A stretch of DNA of 64,000 bases from assembly GCA_934122035.1 (NCBI GenBank), contig CAKOVP010000001.1:60-64059 (forward strand). The letters run 5' to 3'. The translations under genes and the position numbers were made by a program. How positions within the stretch are numbered: position 1 is the stretch's first letter; each line of letters starts with the position of its first letter. The notes below the pieces were generated by a model. It saw nothing but the letters and a program-made list of their open reading frames with translations, had not been told where the DNA came from and did no database searches. Origin of the DNA: an uncultured Clostridia bacterium (GTDB lineage: Bacteria > Bacillota > Clostridia > TANB77 > CAG-508). This document shows positions 52,187 through 52,500 of the stretch, piece after piece.

Positions 52187-52215
52187 TTGCAATTTTTAAT
52201 TCTTTGTGTTATAAT
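52187..52215 (+). promoter_or_regulatory. near-consensus sigma-A promoter (extended -10) for the GC-rich transcript
   Basis: TTGCAA (52187-52192), 17 nt, TGtTATAAT (52207-52215). Confidence 0.55.
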
Positions 52216-52221
52216 AAAGGA

Positions 52222-52500
52222 ACTAGCCAATATACATTGGCAAAATAAAAATAAAGGTAGGTCGTACAAAATGATCAAGAAAGCACTGTTTACTATTAGC
52301 ACATCTCAGTTTGAGGCACTCAAAAGTTGCATCCCGTTTTCAGAGATCACGGTCTTTGGCAATAAGGCTTATGTCCTCGTTGAGGATTCCCCTTACACGC
52401 CAGGATCACCCATCGAACTTGCAAGTTCGATGTTTAACCAGCAGCCCACGTTAGGCTAAACCTTCATCCCAGTAGGAAAAATTTTCTTACTGGGTTTTTT
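52222..52500 (+). ncRNA. candidate structured small RNA (about 280 nt) or small GC-rich ORF; identity unknown
   Basis: About 47% GC over about 200 nt against a background of about 28%. Perfect local hairpins (CATCGAAC-UUGCAA-GTTCGATG; TTTGAG-GCA-CTCAAA; GCCAAT-atac-ATTGGC). Own promoter, and an intrinsic terminator CCCAGTAGG-aaaaattttc-TTACTGGG+T6 at 52469-52500. Also contains a 62-codon ORF (52262..52450) with atypical GC3-rich codons. Confidence 0.4.

What the first reader, a model, noticed from the sequence alone, without database searches (positions are those of the whole stretch)
52187..52500. Stand-alone GC-rich structured transcript between the RelQ-like gene and spoVG (candidate novel sRNA or foreign small ORF)
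A consensus sigma-A promoter (TTGCAA-17-TGtTATAAT) and a strong intrinsic terminator bracket about 280 nt. Over about 200 nt the GC content rises to about 47% in a roughly 28% GC genome. The region contains several perfect hairpins, including CAUCGAAC-UUGCAA-GUUCGAUG. Nothing on this strand follows it, because spoVG is on the opposite strand, so it is not a riboswitch or leader. I could not match it to tmRNA (no tRNA-like CCA end or tag ORF), RNase P RNA or SRP RNA (no GGAA/AGCA helix-8 motif). 6S RNA remains possible. It also contains a 62-codon ORF (MIKKALFTISTSQFEALKSCIPFSEITVFGNKAYVLVEDSPYTPGSPIELASSMFNQQPTLG) with an AGGTAGG RBS, but its codon usage, with many GC3 codons, is very atypical for the host. 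So it is either a structured RNA or a recently acquired small gene, possibly a dual-function RNA.
Basis: seen in the sequence. Interest (0 to 1): 0.6.

Follow-up and report, generated by a model that had tools for sequence, protein, structure and literature searches.

The report
Hidden small-protein gene with self-folding mRNA
The GC-rich "RNA" between the alarmone-synthetase-like gene and spoVG is a conserved, largely unannotated gene for a 62-residue protein of unknown function, and its mRNA appears built to fold back on itself and hide its own ribosome-binding site.

Summary
A sigma-A-type promoter (52187-52215) and a strong terminator (52468-52500) bracket about 280 nt. GC reaches 47-51% in a 28.6% GC window, and no Rfam family matches, even at E<=10.

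It is not a non-coding sRNA, a 6S RNA or a foreign gene. The 62-codon ORF (52271-52459) recurs at the same place, divergent from the SAS-like gene and convergent with spoVG, in at least seven lineages of uncultured Clostridia. Indels are in frame, third-position changes dominate, and dN/dS is 0.2-0.4. AlphaFold gives a confident beta-alpha-beta-beta-alpha fold (pLDDT 87). The protein matches no Pfam, NCBIfam, PADLOC, PHROG or PDB entry.

The RNA is also under selection. GC3 stays at 0.43-0.54 in every lineage tested, against 0.10-0.23 for host genes, although synonymous sites are saturated. Native mRNAs fold better than synonymous-codon permutations in 8/8 lineages. In all nine transcripts folded, the Shine-Dalgarno pairs (P about 0.9-1.0) with an anti-SD placed between the stop codon and the terminator.

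Best reading: a stable, self-repressed small-protein mRNA that works like icaR or type I toxin mRNAs. The protein's function is unknown; a link to the neighbouring SAS is possible.

The parts
52187..52215 (+). Sigma-A-type promoter: -35 TTGCAA, 17-nt spacer, extended -10 TGtTATAAT. The transcription start is inferred at about 52222.
   Evidence: Consensus scan. TGnTATAAT and a TTG -35 element are conserved in six lineages (alignment A5). The start site itself is inferred, not measured.
52226..52241 (+). 5'-proximal hairpin GCCAAT-ATAC-ATTGGC, a few nt from the inferred 5' end. Probably an mRNA-stabilising element.
   Evidence: MFE and centroid fold. A 5'-proximal hairpin of different sequence is predicted in most homologous transcripts. 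The stabilising role is inferred from general knowledge of 5' stem-loops in Firmicutes.
52254..52262 (+). Shine-Dalgarno region AAGGTAGGT. AAGGT (52254-52258) pairs with the 3' anti-SD. GGTCGT (52260-52265) pairs with ATGATC, the start codon plus the next codon.
   Evidence: Base-pair probabilities of 0.8-1.0 for AAGGU with the 3'UTR, and 0.7-0.9 for the second half paired locally.
52271..52459 (+). CDS for a 62-aa protein: MIKKALFTISTSQFEALKSCIPFSEITVFGNKAYVLVEDSPYTPGSPIELASSMFNQQPTLG, then TAA. Member of an orphan family of 56-70-aa proteins.
   Evidence: - Homologous ORFs sit at the same locus in L013, L006, L014, L016, L020/L024 and L025.
- The alignment has invariant K4 A5 L6 F7 Y34 D39 P44 G45 P47 I48.
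- dN/dS is 0.2-0.4 and indels are in frame.
- hhalign gives 96% probability for the L025 protein.
- AlphaFold2 gives pLDDT 86.7.
- GC3 is 0.53 against a host mean of 0.16.
52411..52432 (+). Perfect 9-bp hairpin inside the CDS (CATCGAACT-TGCA-AGTTCGATG). One of several GC-rich coding-region helices.
   Evidence: This exact hairpin is not conserved in distant homologues. They carry other strong hairpins nearby, for example at the PGxPI codons in the L006/L020/L014/L016 clade.
52460..52464 (+). Anti-Shine-Dalgarno ACCTT, immediately after the stop codon and 3 nt before the terminator stem. It pairs with AAGGT of the SD region and closes the whole mRNA.
   Evidence: - MFE, centroid and partition function all show the pairing.
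- An anti-SD sits in the same position in all lineages examined: CCUCC-type, ACCUCU, CUUCC, CUCUUUUU.
- RNAalifold recovers the helix in the L006/L020/L014/L016 clade.
52468..52500 (+). Intrinsic terminator: 12-bp stem CCCAGTAGGAAA/TTTCTTACTGGG, 3-nt loop, T-tract.
   Evidence: A terminator is present in every homologue, with compensatory changes.
51389..52030 (-). Context: a divergently transcribed 213-aa small-alarmone-synthetase (RelA/SpoT-domain) homologue. Its own promoter-like site is at 52094..52066.
   Evidence: - 21 of 29 family members hit PF04607.
- The family profile hits B. subtilis YjbM/SAS1, E = 0.01.
- An AlphaFold2 model (pLDDT 87.7) matches SAS structures 2BE3, 5DEC, 6EX0 and CapRel 7ZTB at E of about 1e-6 to 1e-5.
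- Promoter scan.
52570..52929 (-). Context: spoVG, convergent with the small gene. Its own terminator lies at about 52507-52552 on the minus strand.
   Evidence: PF04026, E = 2e-34. Sequence reading for the terminator.

Best explanation
The locus is a monocistronic gene for a conserved, lineage-restricted small protein: 62 aa here, 56-70 aa in relatives, with a soluble beta-alpha-beta-beta-alpha fold.

Its mRNA has been shaped by selection into a compact, GC-rich, closed structure. A strong constitutive-type promoter makes a transcript of about 280 nt. That transcript carries a 5'-proximal hairpin and a strong terminator hairpin; these are inferred to give stability. The start codon is caught in a local hairpin.

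Once the 3' end is transcribed, an anti-SD sequence placed between the stop codon and the terminator pairs with the Shine-Dalgarno region. This brings the two ends together around a multibranched coding body. The completed mRNA is therefore predicted to be poorly translatable. It would need an opening event to be translated; candidates are 3' trimming or other RNase processing, a helicase, or a trans-acting factor. Alternatively, translation may be limited to the co-transcriptional window.

What is shown here: coding status, conservation, the synonymous-site GC anomaly, and the predicted, conserved SD:anti-SD pairing.

What is inferred: actual translational repression, stability, and the trigger.

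The protein's function is unknown. Because it is kept head-to-head with a divergent small alarmone synthetase in most lineages, the most likely role is as an accessory or regulator in that pathway. That is a guess.
For: Coding status:
- Homologous ORFs occupy the same syntenic slot in 7 lineages.
- Residues are invariant in the KALF...Y..(V/I)ED...PG.PI pattern.
- Indels occur only in multiples of three, third-position differences dominate, and dN/dS is 0.18-0.40 where dS is measurable.
- The SD lies at canonical spacing in all homologues.
- Gene callers do call it in some lineages (P0037-P0046).
- AlphaFold2 gives pLDDT 86.7 and pTM 0.71 from only 11 sequences.

Selection on the RNA:
- GC3 is 0.43-0.54 in the seven lineages tested, against 0.10-0.21 for neighbouring genes. 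In the window it is 0.53 against 0.16 +/- 0.04, with real host genes at or below 0.23. This holds although pS is 0.76-0.92 between lineages, which is saturated.
- Transcript fold z-scores against dinucleotide shuffles are -3.3 to -9.0.
- The native sequence is more stable than synonymous-codon permutations that keep the protein and the codon counts in 8/8 lineages. The fraction of permutations at least as stable is <=0.04 in 6/8.

SD sequestration:
- In all 9 transcripts folded, the SD pairs with the segment between stop codon and terminator with probability of about 0.9-1.0.
- The anti-SD changes along with the SD: AAGGU/ACCUU, GGAAG/CUUCC, AGGAGGU/ACCUCCU, AAGGAGG/CCUCCUU, GAGGAGG/CCUCCUC, AGAGGU/ACCUCU.
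- RNAalifold recovers this helix, the AUG hairpin, a stop-codon hairpin and the terminator, with 9 pairs changed on both sides.
- Anti-SD-like sequence upstream of other terminator-like sites is uncommon. The median duplex energy is -2.1 kcal/mol, and only about 5% of sites are <= -8.
- The energy to open the RBS is 9.7 kcal/mol in the window and 9-21 in relatives, against 5.0 +/- 2.5 for 34 host genes.

Precedents for the mechanism: icaR (PMC3868564), aapA1 (PMC5416894) and hok (PMC9841398).
Against: - There are no expression, translation or structure-probing data. Everything about the RNA rests on thermodynamic prediction.
- In the window itself the SD:anti-SD helix is only 5 bp. Removing the 3'UTR lowers the predicted RBS opening energy by only 2.1 kcal/mol.
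- A test of cognate against non-cognate SD/anti-SD duplex energies is not significant (P = 0.13). Most lineages share GGAGG/CCUCC, and the segments are short and pyrimidine-rich.
- Only about 8 independent lineages exist, and the helix register is not strictly homologous between distant ones, so a formal covariation test is weak.
- The GC3 enrichment could partly reflect selection for rare codons or for resistance to AU-specific RNases, rather than for particular helices.
- The small gene is absent from three SAS-bearing lineages (L009, L031, L033), so any link to the SAS is not obligatory.
Confidence: 0.68

Rival explanations
1. It is a non-coding or dual-function regulatory RNA. On this reading the compact, GC-rich transcript is itself the functional product. 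It might act as an sRNA through its C-rich 3' segment on SD regions of other mRNAs, or as an RNA ligand of the adjacent SAS enzyme. The ORF would be secondary or incidental.
For: - The fold is strong (z = -4.9 in the window, down to -9 in relatives).
- Synonymous sites are selected for structure.
- Gene callers ignore the ORF in this species and in L006, L013 and L025.
- In L028 the protein is no longer recognisably homologous (hhalign probability 18%), yet the mRNA architecture with SD:anti-SD pairing persists.
- In L033 a promoter-terminator unit remains although the ORF is gone.
- From my own knowledge: E. faecalis RelQ is reported to be inhibited by SD-like single-stranded RNA (Beljantseva et al. 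2017 PNAS; seen here only as a reference cited in PMC5794853).
Against: - A purely non-coding role is contradicted by the protein-level conservation, in-frame indels, dN/dS of 0.2-0.4, the conserved SD and start codon, and the confident predicted fold.
- Individual coding-region hairpins are not conserved between distant lineages.
- No Rfam family matches.
- No target or partner has been identified.
Confidence: 0.12
2. It is the toxin mRNA of a type I toxin-antitoxin-like module. On this reading a tightly silenced small ORF is kept untranslated by a 5'-3' fold-back, as in hok or aapA1, and is activated by processing.
For: The mRNA anatomy is the same: a strong promoter, a 5' hairpin, a local hairpin at the start codon, SD sequestration by the 3' end, a very stable compact fold and a small ORF. 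The published models are aapA1 (PMC5416894) and hok (PMC9841398).
Against: - The protein is not hydrophobic. The maximum Kyte-Doolittle 19-residue mean is 0.04-1.12, below the roughly 1.6 expected for a transmembrane helix. It is predicted to be a soluble alpha/beta domain.
- No antisense promoter or antitoxin RNA is predicted opposite or beside it in the window.
- It is single-copy at a conserved core-genome position (and the synteny calls).
- It was lost without trace in three lineages.
Confidence: 0.08
3. The small protein is the antitoxin or obligatory neutraliser of a toxic SAS (a toxSAS-type type II TA pair).
For: - It is adjacent to a SAS-fold gene in at least 7 lineages.
- The SAS model also resembles the toxSAS CapRel (7ZTB, E = 1.4e-5).
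- toxSAS antitoxins are small and diverse (PMC7229694, PMC11782079).
Against: - The genes are divergent, not a bicistronic operon.
- The SAS survives intact, with all invariant catalytic-motif residues, in lineages that lack the small gene.
- The SAS sits among housekeeping genes (murC, spoVG, the S10 operon, recD2).
- Neither protein hits a PADLOC model.
- The small protein shows no sequence or fold similarity to solved antitoxins.
Confidence: 0.07
4. It is a recently acquired foreign gene whose GC-rich codons reflect a higher-GC donor.
For: GC3 is 0.53 against a host value of 0.16, and a CAI-like index is 0.23 against 0.70.
Against: - The same gene is in the same slot in lineages with saturated synonymous divergence, and all keep the high GC3. 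Amelioration should have erased a foreign signature.
- There are no phage or plasmid matches.
- There are no homologues outside this clade among 1.84 billion representative proteins.
- No mobile-element genes flank it.
Confidence: 0.02

Closest known systems
icaR mRNA of Staphylococcus aureus (5'-3' UTR base pairing; PMC3868564)
   Same: Both are Firmicute mRNAs in which a C-rich anti-SD motif in the 3'UTR is complementary to the mRNA's own Shine-Dalgarno region. In icaR this pairing blocks initiation and creates an RNase III substrate. Here the same pairing is predicted with P of about 0.9-1.0 in all homologues.
   Different: - icaR has a long (over 100 nt), conserved 3'UTR and encodes a normal-sized repressor. 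Here the 3'UTR is 41-81 nt and the anti-SD abuts the terminator.
- Here the whole coding region is recoded to high GC, which is not described for icaR.
- Here nothing has been shown experimentally.
Type I toxin mRNAs with fold-back inhibition (hok/Sok, PMC9841398; aapA1/IsoA1, PMC5416894 and PMC6733600)
   Same: Both are small ORFs on compact, highly stable mRNAs. The 5' and 3' ends pair to hide the SD, and local 5' hairpins can limit co-transcriptional translation.
   Different: The product is not a hydrophobic membrane peptide. No antisense antitoxin is predicted. The gene is single-copy at a core-genome site, and toxicity is unknown.
hbs mRNA of Bacillus subtilis (5'/3'-UTR interaction; PMC5737220)
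   Same: Both are short, abundant monocistronic mRNAs for a small protein, with a long-range 5'/3'-UTR helix next to the terminator that affects RNase access and stability.
   Different: In hbs the helix protects an RNase Y site in the leader, and the SD stays available and strongly used. Here the helix covers the SD itself.
toxSAS toxin-antitoxin modules (PMC7229694, PMC11782079)
   Same: A SAS-fold enzyme is genetically associated with a very small, family-specific protein.
   Different: The arrangement is divergent rather than operonic. The small gene is dispensable in three lineages, the genomic context is housekeeping, and there is no similarity to known antitoxins.

Membership tests
Known structured ncRNA families (6S, tmRNA, RNase P, SRP, raiA and the other Rfam 15 models) | A covariance-model score at or above the family's gathering threshold. 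| tested here: not met
   Only a tRNA at 9183-9256 passes in the whole window. With permissive filters at E<=10 on 52100-52580 there is no hit to 6S or to any other family over the body; all hits are 14-22 bits against gathering scores of 50-440.
6S RNA | A rod-like fold with a large central bubble flanked by closing and terminal stems, about 180-200 nt. | tested here: not met
   The MFE and centroid folds are a multibranched body closed by a 5-bp helix, not a rod.
Protein-coding small gene | The ORF is preserved across diverged homologues, with in-frame indels and conserved start and stop. | tested here: met
   Seven lineages carry ORFs of 56-70 codons, with gaps only in whole codons.
Protein-coding small gene | Purifying selection on amino acids (dN/dS below 1; third-position changes in excess). 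| tested here: met
   dN/dS is 0.18-0.40 for pairs with measurable dS. Position-3 differences exceed those at positions 1 and 2 in nearly all pairs.
Protein-coding small gene | A Shine-Dalgarno at functional spacing from the start codon. | tested here: met
   AAGGTAGGT, GGAGG or AGAGGT lies 6-10 nt upstream of the ATG in all homologues.
Protein-coding small gene | The protein product is detected. | not testable with these tools
   This needs Ribo-seq, mass spectrometry or tagging.
mRNAs auto-repressed by 5'-3' UTR pairing (icaR type) | A 3'UTR motif complementary to the mRNA's own SD that is predicted to pair with it in the full-length transcript. | tested here: met
   P(SD paired with 3'UTR) is about 0.9-1.0 in all 9 transcripts. 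RNAalifold recovers the helix.
mRNAs auto-repressed by 5'-3' UTR pairing (icaR type) | The pairing is maintained by co-variation across species. | tested here: inconclusive
   SD and anti-SD variants match by eye in six forms. The cognate-versus-swapped duplex test gives P = 0.13, and only about 8 lineages are available.
mRNAs auto-repressed by 5'-3' UTR pairing (icaR type) | Demonstrated inhibition of initiation-complex formation, or RNase III cleavage of the duplex. | not testable with these tools
   This needs toeprinting, reporter mutants or RNase assays.
Type I toxin-antitoxin system | A small hydrophobic, membrane-active toxin peptide. | tested here: not met
   No 19-residue window exceeds a Kyte-Doolittle mean of 1.12. 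AlphaFold2 predicts a soluble alpha/beta domain.
Type I toxin-antitoxin system | A cis- or trans-encoded antisense RNA antitoxin with its own promoter. | tested here: not met
   No minus-strand promoter-like site lies within or next to 52222-52500. This is a weak test, because it is consensus-based only.
Type I toxin-antitoxin system | The toxin mRNA is kept inert by intramolecular SD sequestration. | tested here: met
   (prediction only).
toxSAS type II toxin-antitoxin module | The toxin has the RelA/SpoT synthetase fold. | tested here: met
   PF04607 is hit in 21 of 29 family members. Foldseek matches SAS1, RelP and CapRel.
toxSAS type II toxin-antitoxin module | Toxin and antitoxin are co-directional in one operon and strictly co-occur. 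| tested here: not met
   The genes are divergently transcribed. The small gene is missing in L009, L031 and L033 although the SAS is intact.
Small alarmone synthetase (for the neighbouring gene 51389-52030) | The synthetase-domain motifs are conserved (G-R-x-K-S, D-x-x-G-x-R, Y-x-x-x-H, E-x-Q). | tested here: met
   G49 R50 K52 S56, D68 G71 R73, Y107 H111 and E135 Q137 are invariant in 29 sequences. Enzymatic activity and product were not tested.

The most novel reading that the evidence does not exclude
The small gene and the divergent SAS may form a previously undescribed alarmone-linked regulatory module. In this reading a deliberately self-silenced, GC-recoded mRNA serves as a stored, rapidly activatable message. 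Its product, or the SD-rich compact RNA itself, would then modulate a new subfamily of small alarmone synthetases. The second option is by analogy with the reported inhibition of RelQ by SD-like single-stranded RNA. Translation of the small protein would be gated by an event that opens the 5'-3' helix, coupling translation or RNA-decay status to (p)ppGpp-type signalling in a lineage of uncultured gut Clostridia.
Probability: 0.1. Interest if true: 0.75.

Novelty: new member of a known kind. Interest (0 to 1): 0.4.

Why it matters
- **Annotation.** A real, conserved gene is skipped by gene callers in four lineages. Elsewhere it is mis-called as a 159- or 99-aa artefact that runs through its own promoter. 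The cause is that its codon usage is the opposite of its host's. GC-rich islands in AT-rich genomes should therefore not be read automatically as ncRNA.

- **Synonymous-site selection.** This is an unusually clean natural case of selection acting on synonymous sites. GC3 is held at about 0.5 in genomes with GC3 of about 0.15, across saturated divergence. The likely reason is to build a compact mRNA that masks its own ribosome-binding site.

- **New example of a rare mechanism.** If confirmed, it adds a compact, phylogenetically supported example of 5'-3' UTR auto-repression in Firmicutes, where few are known (icaR, hbs, type I toxins).

- **New leads.** It points to an uncharacterised small protein and an uncharacterised SAS subfamily that may work together.

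Tried and rejected
**Searches that found nothing**
- Rfam at gathering thresholds and at E<=10: nothing over the element.
- BLASTN of the element against phage and plasmid collections: no match.
- Word-indexed protein search with the 62-aa ORF alone: no hit. The family appeared only when I read the syntenic DNA of SAS homologues and searched with an alignment.
- Exhaustive phmmer against 1.84 billion representatives: only the same-species mis-called ORF (P0047), plus a low-complexity 917-aa repeat protein (P0048) that I reject as a compositional artefact.
- Pfam, NCBIfam, PADLOC, PHROGs and PDB sequence searches on the small protein or its profile: nothing.

**Scans of limited use**
- The JGI metagenome scan with the family alignment found nothing.

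**Structure comparisons**
- Foldseek of the small-protein model against PDB and BFVD gave only generic alpha/beta matches (E >= 0.1).

**Statistical tests**
- The duplex-energy permutation test for SD/anti-SD co-variation was not significant (P = 0.13).
- My crude terminator finder missed most of the homologues' own terminators, so serves only as background.

**Homologues of limited use**
- The L028 ORF is not demonstrably homologous.
- The L033 lineage has no family ORF.

**Artefact I excluded**
- Apparent second copies in my tblastn run came from alignment files that carried the same record names. There is a single copy per locus.
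Full report
**1. The observation**

The region reads as the first-stage reader described.

- The promoter scan finds TTGCAA-17-TATAAT with an extended -10 TG at 52187-52215. The terminator scan finds a 12-bp stem and T-tract at 52468-52494.
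- GC in 100-nt windows rises to 0.47-0.51 between 52300 and 52450, against 0.20-0.33 on either side. The whole window is 28.6% GC.
- The 279-nt transcript inferred from these signals folds to -78.5 kcal/mol, z = -4.9 against dinucleotide shuffles.
- The palindromic hairpin lies at 52411-52432. The 62-codon ORF is 52271-52459, behind AAGGTAGGT.
- spoVG (PF04026) is convergent and has its own terminator. The unit is therefore stand-alone.
- Rfam 15 gives nothing over the element at gathering thresholds, and nothing credible at E<=10. 6S, tmRNA, RNase P, SRP, raiA and the other curated families are therefore not supported.

**2. Finding relatives**

The ORF alone had no hit in the word-indexed protein database. 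The DNA had no phage or plasmid match.

I then used the neighbouring 213-aa gene as an anchor. It has 36 homologues, all from metagenome assemblies, and some carry PF04607. The contigs that encode them share a conserved neighbourhood: murC, spoVG, a gap, the SAS-like gene, then recD2 or the S10 ribosomal operon. The few named records are MAGs of 'Clostridia bacterium'.

- Same-species contigs (L002-L005) carry the element at 99% identity, and no gene is called in the gap.
- In L006, whose SAS is 55% identical, the same gap holds a promoter, a strong AAAGGAGG ribosome-binding site, a 56-codon ORF and a terminator. The ORF's protein aligns with the window's.
- Further members are in L013, L014/15, L016-19, L020-24 and L025. 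Gene callers do call a 56-59-aa protein in some of these.
- An alignment-based search found only ten 90%-identity clusters in 5.8 billion proteins.
- An exhaustive phmmer over 1.84 billion representatives found nothing else real.
- A scan of JGI metagenomes found none.

The family is therefore real but confined to one clade.

**3. It is protein-coding**

- The proteins share KALF near the N-terminus and a Y-V-x-(V/I)-E-D-x-x-x-x-P-G-x-P-I core.
- In a codon alignment all gaps are whole codons, and third positions change most. Where dS is not saturated, dN/dS is 0.18-0.40.
- hhalign places the most divergent clear member (L025) in the family at 96% probability.
- AlphaFold2, with only 11 sequences, gives pLDDT 86.7 for a beta1-alpha1-beta2-beta3-alpha2 domain.
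- No transmembrane segment is present.
- Nothing in Pfam, NCBIfam, PADLOC, PHROGs or PDB sequences matches. Foldseek against PDB and BFVD gives only generic alpha/beta similarities.

**4. It is not 'simply' coding**

The small ORF has GC3 = 0.53 in the window. Real host genes have GC3 = 0.16 +/- 0.04 and never exceed 0.23. The one apparent exception, at 0.39, is the artefactual 159-aa ORF that contains the small ORF. About a third of its codons are ones the host uses for 1-3% of that amino acid.

The same holds in the other lineages tested: GC3 is 0.43-0.54, against 0.10-0.21 for the adjacent spoVG, SAS and other genes. Synonymous differences between lineages are saturated (pS 0.76-0.92). Mutation pressure should therefore have erased any inherited GC long ago. 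The GC at silent sites is being maintained by selection, and a foreign origin is not a tenable explanation.

Permuting synonymous codons within each CDS keeps the protein, the codon counts and the UTRs. These permuted sequences fold less stably than the native one in 8 of 8 lineages (z = -1.0 to -4.2). At most 4% of permutations are as stable in 6 of 8. The arrangement of the codons, not only their composition, therefore favours structure.

**5. The conserved architecture**

I folded nine homologous transcripts, each from the inferred start to the terminator. They show z-scores of -3.3 to -9.0. Most have a 5'-proximal hairpin; in L006 and L020 the minimum-energy fold pairs those bases elsewhere. 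All have a terminator and a helix between the Shine-Dalgarno and the short segment that lies between the stop codon and the terminator. The pairing probability for that helix is about 0.9-1.0.

The two strands of that helix change together:

| Lineage | SD strand | Anti-SD strand |
|---|---|---|
| window | AAGGU | ACCUU |
| L013 | GGAAG | CUUCC |
| L020 | AGGAGGU | ACCUCCU |
| L014 | AAGGAGG | CCUCCUU |
| L016 | GAGGAGG | CCUCCUC |
| L025 | AGAGGU | ACCUCU |

L028 has a longer AAAAAGAG/CUCUUUUU helix.

RNAalifold on the alignable clade (L006, L020, L014, L016) recovers four elements: this closing helix; a 7-bp hairpin with the AUG in its loop; a hairpin with the stop codon in its loop, where GC changes to AU; and the terminator. 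Nine pairs change on both sides.

At 59 other terminator-like sites in the window and loci, complementarity to an SD just upstream of the stem is uncommon (median -2.1 kcal/mol).

The predicted cost of opening the ribosome-binding site (-18 to +10) is 9.7 kcal/mol in the window and 9-21 in relatives. For 34 host genes folded in equal-length segments it is 5.0 +/- 2.5.

**6. Caveats**

- The window's own closing helix is only 5 bp. Deleting the 3'UTR in silico lowers the opening energy by just 2.1 kcal/mol, against 1.6-7.2 across the other lineages.
- A permutation test of cognate against swapped SD/anti-SD partners is not significant (P = 0.13).
- The number of independent lineages is small, and the helix register shifts between distant lineages, so column-wise covariation statistics are weak.
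- All structure statements are predictions.

**7. Mechanism proposed**

A constitutive-type promoter produces a stable, hairpin-capped monocistronic mRNA. While it is being transcribed, the start codon is already caught in a local hairpin. Once the 3' end emerges, the anti-SD closes on the SD, and the message becomes compact and poorly translatable.

Translation would then depend on a trigger that opens or removes the 3' segment, or it would be restricted to a brief co-transcriptional window.

This is how icaR in S. aureus works (PMC3868564), and how the type I toxin mRNAs aapA1 (PMC5416894, PMC6733600) and hok (PMC9841398) work. B. subtilis hbs shows a related 5'/3'-UTR helix that controls RNase access (PMC5737220).

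Working like these is not the same as belonging to them. The product is not a hydrophobic toxin, no antisense RNA is predicted, and the 3'UTR is short.

**8. The neighbour and the protein's role**

The adjacent gene is a genuine but divergent small alarmone synthetase.

- 21 of 29 family members hit PF04607.
- The family profile finds B. subtilis SAS1.
- The G-R-x-K-S, D-x-x-G-x-R, Y-x-x-x-H and E-x-Q motifs are invariant.
- An AlphaFold2 model (pLDDT 87.7) matches SAS1, RelP, a pneumococcal SAS and CapRel at E of about 1e-6 to 1e-5.

The head-to-head arrangement with the small gene is kept in most lineages, which suggests a functional link. A toxSAS toxin-antitoxin pair (PMC7229694) is unlikely, for four reasons:

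- the genes are divergent;
- the context is housekeeping;
- PADLOC finds nothing;
- three lineages keep an intact SAS without the small gene (L009, L031, L033).

The protein's function remains unknown. An accessory or regulatory role in the SAS pathway is my best guess, at low confidence.

**9. Verdict**

The element is a missed small-protein gene whose mRNA is itself a selected, self-masking structure.

It is a new member of known kinds: small proteins, and 5'-3' UTR auto-repressed mRNAs. It is not a new class of RNA.

Its main value is threefold. It is an annotation lesson. It is a clean case of synonymous-site selection for mRNA structure. And it is a lead to an uncharacterised SAS subfamily and its possible partner.

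Noticed in passing
window 15740-15880 (inside ORF 15722-16921, minus strand): This is a second, even stronger GC island: up to 0.61 GC in 150 nt, in a 28.6% GC window. It lies in the 3' end of a 399-aa ORF. The ORF's N-terminus looks like a prepilin-type signal/TM segment (MKKKKFMKGNRGITLVALVV...). Its C-terminal tail is Gly/Arg/Pro/Ala-rich (...RAFRGGRGNGSYYPASACVIINPTGIGGGNGSRPTLYLIP). The ORF's overall GC3 is 0.23, the highest of the real genes in the window.
   Followed up: partly
window 52114-52119 (TTCGAC); equivalent sites in L013, L006, L020, L014, L016, L025: A (T/A)TTCGACA motif is conserved in 7 of 8 lineages within otherwise unalignable AT-rich spacer. It lies about 20 nt upstream of the -35 of the SAS-like gene's promoter. 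Its distance to the small gene's promoter varies (77-190 nt), so it probably belongs to SAS regulation, as an operator or UP-like element.
   Followed up: partly
L033 about 2100-2330, minus strand (the L034 and L035 contigs have the same gene layout but were not read): In this SAS-bearing lineage the slot between spoVG and the SAS keeps a TGTTATAAT promoter and a strong terminator. These bracket an AT-rich unit of about 190 nt with no family ORF; only a 10-codon ORF is present. It may be a decayed remnant or a replaced small transcript.
   Followed up: partly
L028 intergenic spoVG-SAS gap (1774-2500, minus strand); the same in L029: A 65-codon ORF (MKSYNSIIHPDVAKVLLVS...GNRLYVAVDY...) occupies the same slot. 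Its mRNA has the same architecture, with an 8-11-bp SD:anti-SD helix next to the terminator. The protein, however, is not demonstrably homologous to the family (hhalign probability 18%).
   Followed up: partly
window 51977-52459 (+); proteins P0047 and P0090-P0094: In some assemblies of this species, gene callers annotate a 159-aa or 99-aa ORF that starts far upstream and runs through the promoter and 5'UTR into the real 62-aa ORF. In other assemblies nothing is called at all. Both are annotation artefacts caused by the atypical codon usage.
   Followed up: yes
window 53059-53828 (+): The TauE/SafE-like membrane-protein region is broken into adjacent ORFs (34 aa, 106 aa and 137 aa). Related contigs call only a 127-137-aa TauE fragment there. 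It may be a split or frameshifted gene.
   Followed up: no
window 52570-52929 (-): The longest spoVG ORF (119 aa) has a 22-residue N-terminal extension ahead of the Pfam SpoVG match, which starts at residue 23. One related contig calls a 97-aa version. The true start is probably the internal ATG ([11 protein letters not shown]...).
   Followed up: no
window 46372-48330 (-) and 48342-49007 (-): Downstream of recD2 lie a 221-aa phosphoribosyltransferase-like gene (weak PF00156) and a 652-aa KAP-family P-loop NTPase (PF07693). This pairing is present in the same-species contigs; its significance was not examined.
   Followed up: no
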